Below are positions 44,989 through 61,272 of a stretch of DNA of 64,000 nt, piece by piece. Made by a program: the position numbers and the translations under genes. Position 1 is the first letter of the stretch. Each line of letters opens with the position of its first letter. The notes beneath the pieces were generated by a model that saw nothing but the letters and a program-made list of their open reading frames with translations, did not search any database and was not told the origin of the DNA. Source of the DNA: Candidatus Omnitrophota bacterium (GTDB taxonomy: Bacteria; Omnitrophota; Gorgyraeia; Gygaellales; Profunditerraquicolaceae); contig JAPLLX010000004.1 in the NCBI GenBank assembly GCA_026387335.1, positions 189,485 to 253,484 on the forward strand. Reading direction: 5' to 3'.

Positions 44989-46095
44989 CTAATATGCGGT
45001 TTTCTCTTCCAAAATATTAACCAAGCTGGGATTTTCAAGCAAACTATTGTAATGAAAGACTGTATAGCTGCCAGCACCGGCAGACCTGGCAATTTGGAGC
45101 TCATCTCTAAAAACTTTAGCTGCGTGCACCAATTTATAAGCTGGTAACCCGATATATACATTCTTAAAATCTCTTACCTTCTCTTTCGCCTCCTGAATGT
45201 TTTTGTTGAATTCCGCGGCATCTTTAGGATAGCTCATCAGCAGAACAAAATCAACCCGTCCCTCATTTACCCATACCGGCCAATTCTGATAGGCTTCATA
45301 ATACGCCCGGACAAATGGAACGCAGCCGGTTGAGCCTATCCGCATATCCGGGCGCATTGAGCGCACCTTATTCACAAGCAAAGTAAGCAACTCATCTACC
45401 TGCGTTCTTTTCCAATCATTCCAAATTGACAGGCTCTTACTGATATCCTTAACTCCTGTTGCCTTTTTAAAACGCTCAATGTTTGTTTTTGTATAACCAT
45501 AATCAGGGTCTTTATCCGGATAACGTATATAATCAAATAATATCCCGTCTAATCCGGGATAAGCGCTGATCAATTCTTGCGTTATAGAGCAAAGCTCCTG
45601 CCGAACGCGCGTATCTCCCGGCTCAAGAAAAAACTGATCATCTATTTTATAATCATCCAGGCTCTTCTTTTCTTTAAGATTCCTGGTTAAAACATCAACC
45701 CCATACTTCTGCAAAATAAATGCACTCTTATTATCGCTAAGGCTAAGCAGGTTAAGCCACGCGTATACCTTTATGCCTTTGCTGTGGGCTTGTTTAATGA
45801 GAAGATTGAGCGGGTCCTCCCGTAGTTTATCCAAACAGGCTGTATAAGGTTTGGAATCGGCAAACCTTGAATAAAACCAGGCTTTGTTGGCGCGATAAAC
45901 CTGGACAAAAAGAATTCTTGCCTCTACTTTACCGGATAAATCAACTAATTTTGATATTTCATCCCGGGTGGAAAGCGGACCGGGTTCCTGTAATTGAGCT
46001 ACTAAAATTGAAATCGGGGATGCTTCCTGGCAATGGGCGGGTAATTGAATAAAAGAGAGTACACACAGAACGCAGAAAATTATTCTCTTCTTCAT
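44989..46095 (-). CDS. YddW/UPF0748 family glycoside-hydrolase-like lipoprotein (GH10-like TIM barrel)
   Basis: ...GIKVYAWLNLLSL...ILFDYIRYPD..., characteristic of COG1649. Confidence 0.55.
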   Translation of the reverse strand: MKKRIIFCVLCVLSFIQLPAHCQEASPISILVAQLQEPGPLSTRDEISKLVDLSGKVEARILFVQVYRANKAWFYSRFADSKPYTACLDKLREDPLNLLIKQAHSKGIKVYAWLNLLSLSDNKSAFILQKYGVDVLTRNLKEKKSLDDYKIDDQFFLEPGDTRVRQELCSITQELISAYPGLDGILFDYIRYPDKDPDYGYTKTNIERFKKATGVKDISKSLSIWNDWKRTQVDELLTLLVNKVRSMRPDMRIGSTGCVPFVRAYYEAYQNWPVWVNEGRVDFVLLMSYPKDAAEFNKNIQEAKEKVRDFKNVYIGLPAYKLVHAAKVFRDELQIARSAGAGSYTVFHYNSLLENPSLVNILEEKTAY

Positions 46096-46127
46096 AAATA
46101 AACTGCCGGCTTTGGACGATTAGAGAA

Positions 46128-46874
46128 TTATCTACCAGTAACGTTGAGCAATTTTGTTTTCTTTTTTAAGATATAAAATGTTAAATATATACCTAAACTT
46201 ATAATAAAGAATATTATCCAAGAACTATTTACCGTAAATCTTTTTTTGGTTAAGAAATTAGTTGAAATTTCTAAGAAAAAGAACGTTGTCACAATGGAAA
46301 AATAGGTAGAAAACTCTCTCCTAAGAACGGTTTTGAATGAAAACCCTAACTCCGGTTTTTTCCAATTTTTAAAACAAGGAATTACGATAGGCGTTTTTGC
46401 AGCCCATTGCAAGAACTGATCTTTAAATTTACTTCTTAAAAATTCTTCTTCGGTAAAAATAATCCGTTCATAATAGAGCCAAAATCCAAACCAAACTAAT
46501 AAAGCTAACCACCATACTTGAATAAATAAGGTAATGCCTAAAACAATGATAAAATTACCCAAGTAAAGCGGATTCCTCGAGATAGAATACATGCCGGTTG
46601 TATTAAGCATTTCTGCTACTTGCGACTTTGTATTTCTCCCTGATGTACCACGGGGAGCATACCCTGCAGTAATACAACGGACAATAAGGCCTAAAAATGA
46701 TACTATAATTGCACAAGCCCCCCAAGAATCACCTACAGCATCGCCAAATCTTCTTTCCAGCGCTCCTGACTGTCTTAAAGCAATAATAAAAATCGGAATG
46801 CCTAAAAGCGGCAAATAACTTCTCCACCTAAAAAGCCAACTACCTTGTTTTTCCATATCTTCTCGTAGCGCCAT
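46128..46874 (-). CDS. Membrane methyltransferase (isoprenylcysteine carboxyl methyltransferase / phospholipid MT family)
   Basis: ...SISRNPLYLGNFIIVLGITLF..., multi-TM. Confidence 0.5.
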   Translation of the reverse strand: MALREDMEKQGSWLFRWRSYLPLLGIPIFIIALRQSGALERRFGDAVGDSWGACAIIVSFLGLIVRCITAGYAPRGTSGRNTKSQVAEMLNTTGMYSISRNPLYLGNFIIVLGITLFIQVWWLALLVWFGFWLYYERIIFTEEEFLRSKFKDQFLQWAAKTPIVIPCFKNWKKPELGFSFKTVLRREFSTYFSIVTTFFFLEISTNFLTKKRFTVNSSWIIFFIISLGIYLTFYILKKKTKLLNVTGR

Positions 46875-46927
46875 TTTTGCTTTTTAATTCTCCTTATCTT
46901 ATAAAATCAACTGATTTATAAAAATAA

Positions 46928-46999
46928 CTGCCCCGCATGGAATCGAACCATGATAGTCAGATCCAGAATCTGAAGTCCTACCGATTAGACGACAGGGCA
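46928..46999 (-). tRNA. tRNA-Gln (anticodon CUG)
   Basis: Minus-strand read TGCCCTGTCGTCTAATCGGTAGGACTTCAGATTCTGGATCTGACTATCATGGTTCGATTCCATGCGGGGCAG. U1-A72; anticodon loop uuCUGga. Confidence 0.7.
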
Positions 47000-47085
47000 A
47001 ATGATTCCCAGGAATGGATTAGCCGGGAGTAAACCCGGCTTTAATTAATTGAGGAAGAACCGACGTTAATTTATTCTTTTAGGGG

Positions 47086-59100: not shown

Positions 59101-59553
59101 CTATAAACAGGTTTCGCTTTCATGCTTATGCTCCTTAGAATCAAAAGGAATAGGCAATCCCCGCTTAGTATAATAATCTTTTAATGCCGAACGTAAGGCT
59201 TCTTCCGCTAAAACCGAACAATGCATTTTAATCGCCGGTAAACCCCCTAACGCCTCAGCTACCGCCTTATTGGTAATCTTTAATGCTTCCGCAATCGGTT
59301 TTCCTTTGACCATCTCGGTGACCATGGAACTCGTGGCGACCGCCGCTCCGCAGCCGAAGGTCTTAAACTTGATATCTATAATTATATTGTCTTTTATTTT
59401 AAGGTACATTTTCATAACATCACCACAGATTGCGTTGCCGACTGTTCCAATGCCATCTGCATCGGGAATCTCCCCACAATTTCTTGGATTCAGGAAATGC
59501 TCCATAACCTTTTCTGAATATGGGCCGCGGAATTTATCTTTCTCTTCTGACAT
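59101..59553 (-). CDS. iscU: Fe-S cluster assembly scaffold NifU/IscU
   Basis: ...NPRNCGEIPDADGIGTVGNAICGDVMKMYLKI... Confidence 0.85.
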   Translation of the reverse strand: MSEEKDKFRGPYSEKVMEHFLNPRNCGEIPDADGIGTVGNAICGDVMKMYLKIKDNIIIDIKFKTFGCGAAVATSSMVTEMVKGKPIAEALKITNKAVAEALGGLPAIKMHCSVLAEEALRSALKDYYTKRGLPIPFDSKEHKHESETCL

Positions 59554-60588
59554 TTAACCCATCCTTAGATTATCAAACCTATTATTTCTCTCAACGATAT
59601 TCTTTTCTGCTTTCTTTAATGCTATCTTTAGTCTTTGATGTTTGATATAAGGAGCGATACATTTGAATAAACTTAATAGGTCTTTTTTTCTATACACTGC
59701 GATCCGCCAAAAATCATGTTTTGTTTTATATGTTTTCTTAATCCCTCTCTGCCTATCCCTTAGGGATAAGTTAACTTTTGCTCCTTTTGGTTGATCCAAA
59801 TTAAATTTTGATTTTATCCCATATTTTTCTAATTCATTCTTGATTTGGATTAAAATATTTTTGTCATAAGTACCAACTCTTAAATAAGCAAAACCACCGG
59901 AATGGATATTTATCTCTCCTTCGGCATCAAGATAGCCTGCAAAAAACGCAAAAAATAGCTTACGATTTCGTAAGATCCACTTTTTAATCAAATCTTGCTT
60001 GGGTAGTAAAAAATTAAACGAAGGATTCAACGCGCATTGAATCCTAATAATATCTGTCTTATCAGATTTTGTTATACGTACGTACCCATATTTAATAAAT
60101 AAACCGCGGATTAAATTAATCTGCTCTAGGTGAGTAGATGCGCACTCAACGGAAAGTATCTTTCCGTTTTTCTCATATTTTCTTACATGTAAATCCCCCA
60201 AGCGAAACCCAATAAGATAAGATTTCTCAATTAGATCTTCGCTAAAATCATATTTAGGGTATCTTATATGTGATGCGGAAAAATCTCGGATCTTTATATC
60301 ATATTCTTTCAATCTATTTAAGATCGTACCTGACGTGCATGAATACATTTTAGCTATTTGTACACTGGACTTTCCATCATCCACATATAAACAATTTAAC
60401 CTGTCTTTTGGAATTCTAATTTTTACTGACATGGAAAGCCGAACATGAACGCCATATTTATGTAAACTTCTCTGGATAGTCGTCTTACCGCAAGTAAAAA
60501 ACTTTGCTAATTCTCCTATAGAAAACCTCTTTTTCTCATAAAAATATCTTAATTGACCTTTGGGTATTCCAACTTTACTCTTTCCCAT
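59554..60588 (-). CDS. Free-standing LAGLIDADG homing endonuclease with N-terminal HTH modules
   Basis: Two LAGLIDADG-type motifs: ...SYLIGFRLGDLHV... and ...FFAFFAGYLDAEGEI... AT-rich compared with the flanking genes. Wedged with zero spacing between iscU and the MTHFR-C-like gene. Confidence 0.7.
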   Translation of the reverse strand: MGKSKVGIPKGQLRYFYEKKRFSIGELAKFFTCGKTTIQRSLHKYGVHVRLSMSVKIRIPKDRLNCLYVDDGKSSVQIAKMYSCTSGTILNRLKEYDIKIRDFSASHIRYPKYDFSEDLIEKSYLIGFRLGDLHVRKYEKNGKILSVECASTHLEQINLIRGLFIKYGYVRITKSDKTDIIRIQCALNPSFNFLLPKQDLIKKWILRNRKLFFAFFAGYLDAEGEINIHSGGFAYLRVGTYDKNILIQIKNELEKYGIKSKFNLDQPKGAKVNLSLRDRQRGIKKTYKTKHDFWRIAVYRKKDLLSLFKCIAPYIKHQRLKIALKKAEKNIVERNNRFDNLRMG

Positions 60589-60600
60589 CTTAACCTCAAT

Positions 60601-61257
60601 CTATATTTTATTTAAAATTAACTTATGCGGTTTGCCGGATTTCTTAAAATCTTTTGGGCCGCGGATTTCTTTTAAGGATTCTAATTTATTCTTTTTCTCT
60701 AATTCCTTATAGATTAAAACCCAGGCGCAATCTCTATCCTTATCTACTTCGCATTTGCCTTTATTCATCCCACCACAAGGCCCGTTAAGCAGGCCTTTGG
60801 CGCAAAGCGTAATCGGACAGATGCCGCCGGTCACCTGCAAAACACACTCGGCGCACAAAGAGCACTTTTCGTAAAAATCGCCTTTTGCGTCCATTACCGC
60901 GCCGAAAATACTATTACAGGCAGGATAAACCGCTAAGCCCAACCGGTCATTATCTTTAACTGATTGCGCTCCCAGGCCGCAAGATAAAACTAAAATAGCT
61001 TCTGCCTCCCGCAAAACAGACATATTTTTAGCCAGTTCTGTTTTAAGTTTAGCGGCTACGCAGGGCGCGGATGGTATGCAAAAACCTACAACAATCTTGC
61101 CTTGAGCCTCTAAATCCTGCTTCATCTTCAGGATTTCCGGCTCTCCTCCTGTTTTACAGGTGGTCGCGCACTCGCCGCAGCCAACTAGAAAGATTTTGGT
61201 ATAACCTTTTAAGCTATCTATAATATCCTGAATGGGTTTTAGCTCTGTTATAATCAT
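60601..61257 (-). CDS. Cys-rich protein resembling the methylene-tetrahydrofolate reductase C-terminal domain (MTHFR_C, MetV-like)
   Basis: Multiple CxxC / CGxC motifs (VGCGECATTC, CSLCAEC, CPITLCAKGLLNGPCGG). Confidence 0.5.
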   Translation of the reverse strand: MIITELKPIQDIIDSLKGYTKIFLVGCGECATTCKTGGEPEILKMKQDLEAQGKIVVGFCIPSAPCVAAKLKTELAKNMSVLREAEAILVLSCGLGAQSVKDNDRLGLAVYPACNSIFGAVMDAKGDFYEKCSLCAECVLQVTGGICPITLCAKGLLNGPCGGMNKGKCEVDKDRDCAWVLIYKELEKKNKLESLKEIRGPKDFKKSGKPHKLILNKI

Positions 61258-61272
61258 GTAAAAATTTTACCA

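What the first reader, a model, noticed from the sequence alone, without database searches (positions are those of the whole stretch)
59554..60588. AT-rich free-standing LAGLIDADG homing endonuclease inserted with zero spacing between iscU and an MTHFR-C-like gene
Two LAGLIDADG motifs (LIGFRLGDLHV, FFAGYLDAEGEI) plus N-terminal HTH modules. The composition is markedly more AT-rich than its neighbours. The stop abuts the iscU start codon and the start abuts the upstream gene's stop. Free-standing LAGLIDADG genes are rare in bacterial chromosomes. This one looks like a recent selfish insertion into a housekeeping operon without disrupting it.
Basis: partly seen in the sequence, partly recalled or inferred. 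Interest (0 to 1): 0.6.

Follow-up and report, generated by a model that had tools for sequence, protein, structure and literature searches.

The report
Mobile homing-endonuclease gene beside iscU
A selfish DNA-cutting-enzyme gene has recently copied itself into the gap in front of an essential iron-sulfur gene of an uncultivated Omnitrophota bacterium without breaking the operon, and it belongs to a large, apparently undescribed family that does the same next to other housekeeping genes in bacteria and archaea.

Summary
The ORF at 59554..60588 (-) is real. It encodes a 344-aa protein with two N-terminal helix-turn-helix (HTH) modules and a complete two-domain LAGLIDADG nuclease. Both catalytic acids, D132 and E223, are invariant in 111 homologues. 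Its GC is 0.32 against 0.42-0.48 in the flanks. Its stop codon touches the iscU ATG, but the upstream side has a 12-nt spacer, not zero spacing.

A relative that is 91-96% identical in flanking DNA (L094) has an empty site, where 40 nt stand in place of 1104 nt. All 80 closest DUF5981 loci in metagenomes also lack the gene. The first ~190 nt of iscU in the window are foreign, which looks like a co-conversion tract. The gene is itself recombinant: its last 144 codons are about 92% identical to copies in genomes whose flanks are only 63-73% identical. Carriers are scattered among non-carriers at the same site.

The family contains at least 186 clusters at 50% identity, mostly from CPR bacteria, DPANN archaea and Omnitrophota. 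Each clade sits against one conserved gene (metG, iscU, lepA, yebC, leuD, groEL or uvrA).

The best reading is a free-standing LAGLIDADG homing endonuclease that spreads by intronless homing. Cleavage activity and the target site are inferred, not shown. I rate it a new variant of a known kind, interest 0.6.

The parts
59554..60588 (-). Free-standing homing endonuclease gene (344 aa): two HTH modules plus a two-domain LAGLIDADG nuclease
   Evidence: ORF. Pfam LAGLIDADG_3. AlphaFold model with pLDDT 90.4. Foldseek matches to PI-PfuI and I-DmoI. dN/dS of 0.07-0.43 in all segments.
60457..60561 (-). HTH module 1 (aa 10-44)
   Evidence: Three-helix bundle in the model. Weak Pfam UPF0175 and HTH_7 hits. 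PHROG 8446 match. PDB 2lvs match to the family profile.
60304..60408 (-). HTH module 2 (aa 61-95)
   Evidence: Three-helix bundle in the model. Weak HTH_50 and CENP-B_N hits. PHROG 7545 match. The number of such modules varies from 1 to 4 or more across the family.
60184..60216 (-). LAGLIDADG motif 1 (LIGFRLGDLHV), with predicted catalytic D132
   Evidence: G127, F128, G131 and D132 are invariant in 111 sequences.
59911..59946 (-). LAGLIDADG motif 2 (FFAGYLDAEGEI), with predicted catalytic E223
   Evidence: D221, A222, E223 and G224 are invariant in 111 sequences. This stretch aligns to the second domain of PI-PfuI.
59554..59988 (-). Recently exchanged 3' segment of the gene (aa 201-344: second LAGLIDADG domain and C-terminus)
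   Evidence: It is 92% identical in DNA to L001 with dS 0.28, whereas aa 1-200 are 61-71% identical with dS of 2 or more. At protein level it is 90-94% identical to P0002-P0005 in aa 201-270, while the N-terminal 110 aa are only 45-63% identical to anything in the database.
60589..60600 (-). 12-nt spacer ATTGAGGTTAAG, carrying the gene's own ribosome-binding site (GAGG)
   Evidence: Read directly from the sequence.
59554..59571 (-). Last codons of the gene (..NLRMG*), reading CTAAGGATGGGTTAA. They contain a Shine-Dalgarno-like AAGGA about 9 nt upstream of the iscU ATG (window 59551..59553, which directly follows the stop).
   Evidence: The same nucleotides occur in L001, L003 and L006. Other clades have their own purine-rich 3' ends 8-12 nt before the adjacent gene's start.
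59515..60618 (-). Block that is present here and absent in the near-identical relative L094: 1104 nt here in place of 40 nt there
   Evidence: blastn of the window against L094. The block comprises the last 18 nt of DUF5981, the spacer, the endonuclease gene, and the first 39 nt of iscU.
59359..59553 (-). Foreign 5' part of iscU (putative co-conversion tract)
   Evidence: It is 67-72% identical to L094, against 92-98% for the rest of iscU. Nucleotides 1-60 are 93% identical to the carrier allele L001. Nucleotides 120-180 are 100% identical to the non-carrier L156.
59101..59553 (-). iscU / nifU-type Fe-S scaffold gene (150 aa), the adjacent conserved gene and presumed target
   Evidence: Pfam NifU_N, 163 bits. 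TIGR03419, 206 bits against a cut-off of 188.
60601..61257 (-). Upstream gene encoding DUF5981 (MTHFR C-terminal-like, Cys-rich). Its C-terminus reads ILNKI in place of LMSK.
   Evidence: Pfam PF12225, 112 bits. Comparison with L094.

Best explanation
The ORF is a free-standing LAGLIDADG homing endonuclease gene. It is not inside an intron or an intein. It entered this Omnitrophota lineage recently, at the boundary between DUF5981 and iscU.

Proposed mechanism:
1. The protein binds a long site in the conserved 5' part of iscU alleles that lack the gene. The two LAGLIDADG domains make the double-strand cut, and the tandem HTH modules extend or anchor recognition.
2. The break is repaired by homologous recombination from a carrier allele. 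This copies the gene together with flanking iscU sequence (co-conversion).
3. Carrier alleles escape cutting because they carry a 15-nt insertion after the start codon and a fixed set of mostly synonymous changes in the most conserved stretch (..YSEKVM[D>E]HF..PRN[V>C]GE..).
4. The host tolerates the insertion because the gene lies exactly between the two ORFs. It has its own ribosome-binding site, and it supplies an AAGGA ribosome-binding site and a TAAATG junction for iscU, so the operon stays translationally coupled.

Shown here: the architecture and fold; the conserved catalytic residues; purifying selection; the empty site in a near-identical genome; the foreign iscU tract; the recombinant structure of the gene; the scattered occurrence at one site; and the link between family clades and adjacent genes.

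Inferred: nuclease activity, the location of the cut site, the basis of immunity, and the route of DNA transfer between cells.
For: Nuclease identity. Pfam LAGLIDADG_3 scores above its cut-off. D132 and E223 are invariant, and Q156 and K243 nearly invariant, in 111 homologues. The model has pLDDT 90.4, and its best structural matches are PI-PfuI (E 2.7e-9) and I-DmoI (target-normalised TM 0.66-0.69).

Selection. dN/dS is 0.07-0.43 in every segment.

Empty site. L094 is 91-96% identical in flanking DNA but has 40 nt where the window has 1104 nt. None of the 80 closest DUF5981 loci carries the gene, and about 55 of them have iscU directly after DUF5981. No remnants were found.

Co-conversion. 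The window's iscU is 67-72% identical to L094 over nucleotides 1-180 and 92-98% beyond that. Its first 60 nt are 93% identical to the carrier L001.

Horizontal exchange. L001 and L003 are 88-93% identical across the endonuclease gene, with identity decaying into both flanks (0.5-0.75). dS is 0.41 in the gene against 1.6-3.8 or saturated in the flanks. The 3' 430 nt of the window's copy are 92% identical to L001, against 63-73% in the flanks.

Independent gains. Each carrier's nearest relatives by DUF5981 are non-carriers (66-96% identity), whereas carriers are only 62-75% identical to one another.

Composition. The gene stays at GC3 0.27-0.35 while host GC3 ranges from 0.32 to 0.59.

Family pattern. 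The iscU-linked clade also sits directly upstream of iscU in an unrelated bacterium (L009) and in an archaeon (L010). In both the upstream gene is iscS rather than DUF5981. Other clades abut metG, lepA, yebC, leuD, groEL or uvrA.

Allele association. All 4 carriers have Cys in PRN[C]GE, against 3 of 53 non-carriers (Fisher p = 9e-5, not corrected for relatedness).

Precedent. Intronless homing with co-conversion is established for free-standing T4 seg and mob genes (PMC2988022).
Against: No biochemical evidence of cleavage exists, and no target site has been mapped.

The shared substitutions in carrier iscU alleles could be pure hitch-hiking with the donor tract rather than immunity.

Ordinary homologous recombination of a fragment flanked by homologous DNA could insert the gene without any cut.

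All the data come from metagenome assemblies. Fine-scale mosaics such as the 100%-identical ~100-nt tract shared with L156 could in principle be affected by strain mixing. The main junctions, however, were assembled independently.

How DNA passes between cells of these uncultivated organisms is unknown. Only one weak relative (31% identity) was found in 2.9 million viral contigs, so phage carriage is not supported.

dS values in an AT-biased gene are underestimated to some degree.
Confidence: 0.75

Rival explanations
1. The gene is a relic that no longer cuts DNA, or never needed to. It spreads or persists only by ordinary homologous recombination and hitch-hiking with iscU alleles.
For: The mosaic tracts show recombination, but they do not prove that a site-specific break started it. 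Homologous flanks on both sides would allow RecA-mediated integration of a transformed fragment.
Against: The catalytic D and E are invariant in 111 homologues, and dN/dS is 0.07-0.43 across the whole protein including the nuclease core. No degenerate copies or remnants were seen. The gene occupies the identical site in five divergent lineages, and upstream of iscU in a different bacterium and in an archaeon. That is hard to explain without site-specific targeting.
Confidence: 0.1
2. The protein is domesticated and does a host job, for example as an HTH regulator of iscU/Fe-S assembly in the way WhiA is a LAGLIDADG-derived regulator. On this reading it is inherited vertically.
For: It has HTH modules and tight translational coupling to iscU. 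Its amino-acid divergence between carriers (74/74/60%) is similar to that of neighbouring genes. It is under purifying selection. Homing endonucleases are known to moonlight, for example I-TevI as an autorepressor (PMC3384342).
Against: It is absent from a near-identical relative and from all 80 closest loci, so it is dispensable. Sister clades sit beside unrelated genes (metG, lepA, groEL and others). The catalytic residues that WhiA has lost are retained here. There are no WhiA Pfam domains. Its composition does not drift toward that of the host.
Confidence: 0.06
3. The gene is an old resident of this site. The polymorphism reflects repeated precise losses in relatives rather than a recent gain here.
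For: Three non-carrier alleles (L109, L138, L156) carry carrier-like iscU 5' features (PRNCGE). L109 also has the 5-codon N-terminal extension, and L156 shares a 100%-identical tract with the window. This suggests that losses, or conversions that did not include the gene, do occur.
Against: All of the 80 closest loci are empty, including those that bracket the window and L094. The window's iscU 5' end is foreign to its own genomic background while the rest of the gene matches L094 at 97-98%. That pattern indicates import, not retention.
Confidence: 0.07
4. The arrangement is a metagenome assembly chimera that joins DNA of different organisms at an AT-rich stretch.
For: The window comes from a metagenome-assembled genome (MAG). 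Several short contigs break about 60 nt upstream of the gene.
Against: An independent assembly (L174) reproduces 3808 nt across both junctions at 99.97% identity. The same gene order is seen in at least 8 other contigs from ENA, JGI, NCBI and Logan. Contig breaks at that point are what mixed carrier and non-carrier strains would produce.
Confidence: 0.02

Closest known systems
Free-standing homing endonucleases of T4-like phages (seg, GIY-YIG; mob, HNH) and 'intronless homing'
   Same: The gene lies between conserved genes rather than inside an intron or intein. It is variably present among relatives. Flanking sequence is co-converted. The likely target is in the adjacent conserved gene. Its expression is integrated into the host operon (PMC2988022).
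   Different: The nuclease family is different: LAGLIDADG rather than GIY-YIG or HNH. The host is a cellular chromosome of bacteria and archaea, not a phage. The gene sits exactly at the start codon, or for some clades the stop codon, of the adjacent gene. The converted tract is short (about 190 nt), which suggests a cut close to the insertion point, whereas phage enzymes cut hundreds to thousands of bp away.
Monomeric LAGLIDADG endonucleases I-DmoI (archaeal intron) and PI-PfuI (archaeal intein)
   Same: [quoted passage not shown] The PI-PfuI endonuclease domain is the best match by both sequence and structure.
   Different: It is not embedded in an intron or an intein (no Hint domain). It carries N-terminal tandem HTH modules that those enzymes lack.
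HO endonuclease of yeast (F-SceII)
   Same: It is a free-standing LAGLIDADG enzyme of the intein-type (LAGLIDADG_3) lineage with an added DNA-binding domain (and my own knowledge).
   Different: HO is domesticated for mating-type switching, retains relic intein domains, and uses a C-terminal zinc-finger region. This protein is mobile, has no intein relics, and uses N-terminal HTH repeats.
WhiA/DUF199 bacterial regulators
   Same: They combine a LAGLIDADG fold with an HTH domain in a bacterial chromosome. 3hyi appears among the fold matches.
   Different: WhiA has lost the catalytic acids and basic residues, its HTH is C-terminal, and it is universally present in Gram-positive bacteria. Here the acids are invariant, the HTH is N-terminal, the gene is sporadic, and no WhiA Pfam domains match.
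Free-standing LAGLIDADG ORFs of fungal mitochondria
   Same: They belong to the same nuclease family and occur as independent ORFs between genes (about 7% of LAGLIDADG genes in that survey; PMC7487136).
   Different: They are in organellar genomes and belong to the LAGLIDADG_1/2 types. They have no HTH arrays, and no systematic placement at start codons of housekeeping genes has been reported for them.
Modular HTH DNA-binding domains of phage HNH homing endonucleases (PHROG 8446 and 7545)
   Same: The N-terminal 100 aa match these profiles (E 1e-10 and 1.5e-7). The same kind of HTH module is therefore reused by unrelated homing nucleases.
   Different: The nuclease domain attached to it is LAGLIDADG, not HNH.

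Membership tests
LAGLIDADG homing endonuclease (monomeric, two-domain) | Two LAGLIDADG helices, each ending in a metal-binding acidic residue | tested here: met
   LIGFRLGD132 and FFAGYLDAE223G. G131-D132 and D221-A222-E223-G224 are invariant in 111 homologues.
LAGLIDADG homing endonuclease (monomeric, two-domain) | Curated profile match | tested here: met
   Pfam PF14528 LAGLIDADG_3, 33 bits against a cut-off of 22.5. Only the second domain passes the profile.
LAGLIDADG homing endonuclease (monomeric, two-domain) | [quoted passage not shown] | tested here: met
   AlphaFold model with pLDDT 90.4. Foldseek matches: PI-PfuI at E 2.7e-9, I-DmoI at target TM 0.66-0.69, plus I-Tsp061I and I-AniI.
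LAGLIDADG homing endonuclease (monomeric, two-domain) | Site-specific cleavage of a 14-40 bp target, leaving 4-nt 3' overhangs | not testable with these tools
   This needs purified protein and empty-site DNA.
Mobile homing element | Presence/absence polymorphism at one precise site in close relatives | tested here: met
   L094 has an empty site, with flanks 91-96% identical in DNA. None of the 80 closest loci carries the gene. Carriers are polyphyletic.
Mobile homing element | Co-conversion of flanking sequence with the element | tested here: met
   iscU nucleotides 1-180 are 67-72% identical to L094, and nucleotides 180 onward are 92-98% identical. Identity between L001 and L003 declines away from the gene on both sides.
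Free-standing (intronless) homing endonuclease gene | [quoted passage not shown] | tested here: met
   No Rfam intron family matches. No Hint/intein domain is present. The gene has its own GAGG-spacer-ATG and a TAA stop. iscU and DUF5981 are intact.
Free-standing (intronless) homing endonuclease gene | Cleavage site lies in a neighbouring conserved gene, and the carrier allele is resistant through sequence differences | tested here: inconclusive
   Carrier alleles share a 15-nt insertion and fixed substitutions in the most conserved 22-mer of iscU. This could equally be hitch-hiking.
Intein-encoded endonuclease | In-frame insertion in a host protein, flanked by Hint splicing blocks, with a C/S/T residue at the +1 position | tested here: not met
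   The ORF is separate, with its own start and stop, and Pfam finds no Hint domain. A true iscU intein does exist in relatives (L103, L164), but its endonuclease is unrelated (E = 1).
WhiA/DUF199 | WhiA_N + LAGLIDADG_WhiA + C-terminal HTH_WhiA, with the catalytic residues lost | tested here: not met
   No WhiA Pfam families match. The catalytic acids are retained. The HTH is N-terminal.
Anti-phage defence system component | Match to a PADLOC model, or a defence-island context | tested here: not met
   The only match is a 21-bit hit to the HTH region. The neighbours are housekeeping genes.

The most novel reading that the evidence does not exclude
The window's gene is one member of an apparently undescribed, cross-domain family of modular free-standing homing endonucleases that combine 1 to 4 or more HTH repeats with a LAGLIDADG core. 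The family has at least 186 clusters at 50% identity and relatives in 192 species genomes, mostly CPR bacteria, DPANN archaea and Omnitrophota.

Each clade is specialised on the boundary of one conserved housekeeping gene. Clades linked to metG, iscU, lepA, yebC and leuD sit at that gene's start codon. Clades linked to groEL and uvrA sit at its stop codon. The elements encode the adjacent gene's ribosome-binding site in their own 3' end, and they are still moving between species, and historically between domains.

This would be a chromosomal, cellular counterpart of the intronless homing known from phages. It would also be a natural library of meganucleases aimed at universally conserved genes.
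Probability: 0.5. Interest if true: 0.7.

Novelty: new variant of a known kind. Interest (0 to 1): 0.6.

Why it matters
Homing endonucleases are normally thought to need an intron or intein to invade conserved cellular genes. Free-standing ones are known mainly from phages (GIY-YIG and HNH types) and from organelles.

This locus is a natural snapshot of a free-standing LAGLIDADG gene invading a bacterial housekeeping operon. It shows the filled site, the empty site, the co-converted tract, a domain-level recombinant of the enzyme, and alleles that look like lost or immune states. That is the whole proposed life cycle of such an element, visible in environmental genomes.

The family-wide pattern suggests a general strategy: settle exactly at a gene boundary and supply the neighbour's ribosome-binding site. 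This lets a selfish nuclease use conserved coding sequence as a target without needing splicing.

The strategy occurs mostly in ultra-small, host-dependent lineages (CPR, DPANN, Omnitrophota), where gene exchange is poorly understood. Practically, these enzymes are candidate meganucleases with long targets in universally conserved genes, and the variable HTH arrays are a natural example of modular specificity extension.

Tried and rejected
- Vertical inheritance. Similar amino-acid divergence of the gene and its flanks at first suggested an old, vertically inherited resident. I rejected this after the sliding-window DNA identity, the segment-wise dS and the empty sites.
- Degraded copies. I looked in the 80 empty loci and in the longer spacers of L102 and L104 and found none.
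- Origin from the iscU intein. I tested whether the free-standing gene derives from the intein found in relatives. There is no significant similarity (E = 1).
- Intron. I looked for a group I/II intron around the gene and found none.
- Phage vector. Only one relative, at 31% identity, turned up in the viral collection.
- Curated families. I checked NCBIfam, PHROGs and PADLOC. There is no NCBIfam model, PHROG hits cover only the HTH region, and there is no defence-system match.
- Flanking repeat. I tested whether the 11-nt direct repeat TCCGCGGCCCA that brackets the gene is a conserved feature of carriers. It is specific to this window.
- Conserved C-terminal arginine. I tested whether this Arg is preferentially encoded by AGG, which would favour a Shine-Dalgarno role. 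The count was 4 AGG against 5 AGA, too few to tell.
- Promoter and terminator scans. They gave nothing above shuffled expectation.
- Literature. Searches found no description of free-standing LAGLIDADG genes in Omnitrophota or next to metG. This is absence of evidence in an open-access subset only.
Full report
**1. The observation**

The minus-strand ORF at 59554..60588 encodes 344 aa. Pfam LAGLIDADG_3 matches aa 213-272 at 33 bits, above the 22.5-bit cut-off. Several HTH families match weakly at aa 16-49 and 66-98.

The gene has GC 0.32 and GC3 0.28. Its seven neighbours have GC 0.42-0.48 and GC3 0.42-0.51. Its TAA stop is followed directly by the iscU ATG (TAAATG). On the other side a 12-nt spacer, ATTGAGGTTAAG, containing a GAGG ribosome-binding site, separates it from the stop of the DUF5981 (MTHFR-C-like) gene. 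So 'zero spacing' applies to the iscU side only.

The exact protein is already in NCBI as 'LAGLIDADG family homing endonuclease' from a Candidatus Omnitrophica MAG. An independent Logan assembly (L174) reproduces 3808 nt across both junctions at 99.97% identity.

**2. What the protein is**

An AlphaFold model built on 111 homologues is confident (pLDDT 90.4, pTM 0.74). It shows two three-helix HTH bundles (aa 10-44 and 61-95), followed by two alpha/beta LAGLIDADG domains and C-terminal helices.

Foldseek against the PDB returns the intein endonuclease PI-PfuI (E 2.7e-9). It is followed by dozens of I-DmoI chains (target-normalised TM 0.66-0.69), then I-Tsp061I and I-AniI. The domesticated regulator WhiA ranks lower. 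A family profile also finds PI-PfuI by sequence (E 1e-6), and it finds a two-HTH-repeat protein, 2lvs.

Across 111 homologues, G131-D132 and D221-A222-E223-G224 are invariant, and Q156 and K243 are nearly so. The D/E pair corresponds to the metal-binding D20/E117 of I-DmoI, which WhiA has lost (PMC3384342).

The HTH region matches PHROG families annotated as phage HNH endonucleases. The same kind of DNA-binding module is therefore shared with unrelated homing nucleases. There is no Hint/intein domain and no group I/II intron, so the gene is free-standing.

**3. Is it mobile?**

*First look.* Homologues at 74% and 60% identity sit in exactly the same slot (DUF5981, the endonuclease gene, iscU, the 5-formyl-THF cyclo-ligase gene, RNase Y, YmdB) in other Omnitrophota contigs. 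Their amino-acid divergence is close to that of the flanking genes. Three further results reverse that reading.

*(a) Empty sites.* A metagenome scan with the upstream DUF5981 protein returned its 80 closest loci (71-96% identity). None carries the endonuclease gene. In about 55 of them iscU follows DUF5981 directly.

The closest locus, L094, has flank proteins 93-99% identical and flank DNA 91-96% identical to the window. It has 40 nt where the window has 1104 nt (window 59515..60618). In L094, 1 nt separates the DUF5981 stop codon from the iscU ATG.

*(b) A co-conversion tract.* The window's iscU is 67-72% identical to L094 over its first 180 nt, 92% over the next 60 nt, and 97-98% beyond that. 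The first 60 nt are 93% identical to the carrier allele of L001. Nucleotides 120-180 are 100% identical to L156, a non-carrier whose iscU is otherwise about 70% identical.

*(c) The gene is younger than its hosts, and recombinant.* Between L001 and L003 the endonuclease gene is 88-93% identical in DNA. Identity decays through the DUF5981 3' end and the iscU 5' end to 0.5-0.75. dS is 0.41 in the gene against 1.6-3.8 or saturated in the flanks.

Codons 201-344 of the window's copy are 92% identical to L001 (dS 0.28), while codons 1-200 have dS of 2 or more. The N-terminal 110 aa have no close relative anywhere in the database. The breakpoint falls between the two LAGLIDADG domains.

*Selection, distribution and composition.* All segments show dN/dS of 0.07-0.43. 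Each carrier's nearest neighbours by DUF5981 are non-carriers, so carriers are polyphyletic. The gene keeps GC3 at 0.27-0.35 while host GC3 ranges from 0.32 to 0.59. It therefore belongs to a gene pool separate from any single host. No degraded copies were found in the empty sites.

**4. Where it probably cuts (inference)**

The iscU-linked clade also lies directly upstream of iscU in an unrelated bacterium (L009) and in an archaeon (L010). In both the upstream gene is iscS rather than DUF5981. The only shared neighbour is iscU, so recognition should lie in iscU.

Among 53 empty alleles, the most conserved 22-mer is CGAAAAAGTAATGGATCATTTT, which encodes EKVMDHF. The carrier alleles share a 15-nt insertion just after the start codon in WIN, L001 and L003; L006 has a shorter extension. 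They also share the substitutions AGC>TCA, GTA>GTT, GAT>GAG (D>E), TTT>TTC and GTC>TGT (V>C) in and next to that block.

Cys in PRN[C]GE occurs in all 4 carriers and in 3 of 53 non-carriers (p = 9e-5, not corrected for relatedness). The three exceptions (L109, L138, L156) look like alleles that lost the gene or were converted without acquiring it.

These facts fit a target in the first ~60 nt of iscU with immunity through sequence change. They are equally what hitch-hiking with a donor tract would produce. Only a cleavage assay can decide between the two.

**5. Why the operon survives (sequence-based inference)**

The element lies exactly between the two ORFs and carries its own GAGG site. Its last codons (..NLRMG*, CTAAGGATGGGTTAAATG) place an AAGGA about 9 nt before the iscU ATG. 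The same nucleotides are kept in L001, L003 and L006.

The lepA and yebC clades have their own conserved purine-rich 3' ends 8-12 nt before the adjacent gene's start, often with an ATGA overlap. iscU remains a full-length NifU-type scaffold. DUF5981 changes only its last four or five residues.

**6. The wider family**

A phmmer search of 1.84 billion cluster representatives gives 1857 hits at E <= 1e-3, 659 at E <= 1e-10 and 186 at E <= 1e-30. Relatives occur in 192 of 185,579 species genomes. They are mostly CPR/Patescibacteria and DPANN archaea, plus Omnitrophota, Margulisbacteria, Chloroflexi and Bipolaricaulota.

In the 93 loci analysed (80 from that genome scan plus the 13 fetched), the gene almost always ends within a few nucleotides (-4, -1, 0 or +2) of a conserved gene. 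The adjacent genes, counted over those loci plus the window's own, are:

| Adjacent gene | Loci | Arrangement |
|---|---|---|
| Methionyl-tRNA synthetase (metG) | 51 | Upstream, co-directional; at least 3 are in-frame fusions |
| iscU | 13 | Upstream, co-directional |
| lepA | 7 | Upstream, co-directional |
| yebC | 5 | Upstream, co-directional |
| leuD | 3 | Between leuC and leuD |
| A tetrapyrrole-type methylase | 1 | Upstream, co-directional |
| groEL | 5 | Convergent, at the 3' end |
| uvrA | 3 | Convergent, at the 3' end |

The counts include duplicate contigs of the same locus. In a neighbour-joining tree the iscU, lepA, yebC, groEL and uvrA sets are each monophyletic. That tree is rough and has no support values.

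Only one weak relative was found in 2.9 million viral contigs.

**7. Comparison with what is known**

In mechanism, the closest analogue is the intronless homing of T4 seg and mob genes. Those are free-standing GIY-YIG or HNH genes that lie between conserved genes, cut a neighbouring gene, and are inherited with co-converted flanks (PMC2988022). A 2026 review-level statement still describes free-standing genes as limited to intergenic targets (PMC13619312).

Free-standing LAGLIDADG genes are documented in fungal mitochondria (PMC7487136), and the domesticated HO endonuclease is another example. Known LAGLIDADG genes of CPR bacteria are those in rRNA insertions (PMC11270868).

I found no paper describing free-standing LAGLIDADG genes in Omnitrophota, or next to metG or iscU. 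That search covers open-access text only.

The protein passes every testable criterion for a LAGLIDADG homing endonuclease and for a mobile, free-standing element. It fails the criteria for WhiA, for an intein-encoded enzyme, and for a defence-system component.

**8. Verdict**

The gene is best described as a free-standing HTH-LAGLIDADG homing endonuclease that entered this lineage recently by gene conversion at the start of iscU (confidence 0.75).

It is a new variant of a known kind. The nuclease family and the idea of intronless homing are both known. The combination seen here appears undescribed: a LAGLIDADG core, an HTH array, precise placement at the boundaries of housekeeping genes in cellular chromosomes, and clades specific to the adjacent gene across two domains of life. 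Interest is 0.6.

Noticed in passing
L103:4151-5659, L164:4164-5654 (and probably L113): In some Omnitrophota relatives that lack the free-standing gene, iscU itself carries an intein of about 350 aa. It is inserted at KFKTFG|C...VHN|CGAAIATSS, directly before the conserved cluster-ligand Cys. The intein has its own LAGLIDADG motifs (LMRLIGYYLSEGYI and TYLFGDGD). Its endonuclease is unrelated to the free-standing one (E = 1). So iscU in this clade is hit by two different selfish elements. I know of no described IscU intein.
   Followed up: partly
L020:3995-6415, L029:4001-7045, L073:1651-4665 (also L053, L067): In several DPANN archaea the homologous endonuclease ORF runs in frame into the downstream methionyl-tRNA synthetase, giving an ORF of 800-1000 aa. 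This could be a real fusion protein, a lost stop codon, or an assembly or frameshift artefact.
   Followed up: no
L027, L041, L074, L075, L082 (groEL); L052, L056, L089 (uvrA): Two clades of the family are oriented convergently. Their 3' ends overlap or abut the 3' end of groEL or uvrA, rather than the 5' end of a co-directional gene.
   Followed up: partly
L012/L013/L026:6001-7095 (Margulisbacteria): A 40%-identical homologue sits between leuC and leuD, the large and small aconitase-type subunits. The junctions are 1 nt and -4 nt, so it splits a two-subunit enzyme operon.
   Followed up: partly
window 59521-59531 and 60655-60665 (minus strand): An exact 11-nt direct repeat, TCCGCGGCCCA (contains a SacII site), brackets the endonuclease gene 1134 nt apart. 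The chance expectation is 0.02 matches. One copy is in the DUF5981 3' end (codons for RGP) and the other is in the iscU 5' extension (also RGP). It is absent from the other carrier loci. Unexplained.
   Followed up: yes
L156:4156-4593, L138, L109: Three iscU alleles without the endonuclease gene carry carrier-type features. L156 is 100% identical to the window over about 100 nt of an otherwise ~70%-identical gene. L109 has the 5-codon N-terminal extension. They are candidates for loss of the element, or for conversion without acquisition.
   Followed up: partly
L117, L120, L129, L134, L143, L148, L149, L151, L155, L158: In a subset of relatives DUF5981 is followed directly by the 5-formyl-THF cyclo-ligase gene, with no iscU at this position. 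The iscU slot itself is therefore variable in this clade.
   Followed up: no
window 61258-61272 region vs L094:3307-3463: L094 has about 157 nt between the uvrD-like helicase gene and DUF5981 that the window lacks. This is another small indel between the two near-identical genomes.
   Followed up: no
window 46001-47000: This is the second-lowest GC kilobase of the window (0.352). It holds a 248-aa multi-pass membrane protein ORF (46128..46874, minus strand) and a 368-nt intergenic gap before gltX. There is no similarity to the endonuclease.
   Followed up: partly
L175, L176 (Logan contigs; L176 seen in 11 samples): Short contigs carrying the identical gene begin about 60 nt upstream of its ATG, close to the left edge of the inserted block. 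This is the pattern expected if carrier and non-carrier strains coexist and fork the assembly graph.
   Followed up: no
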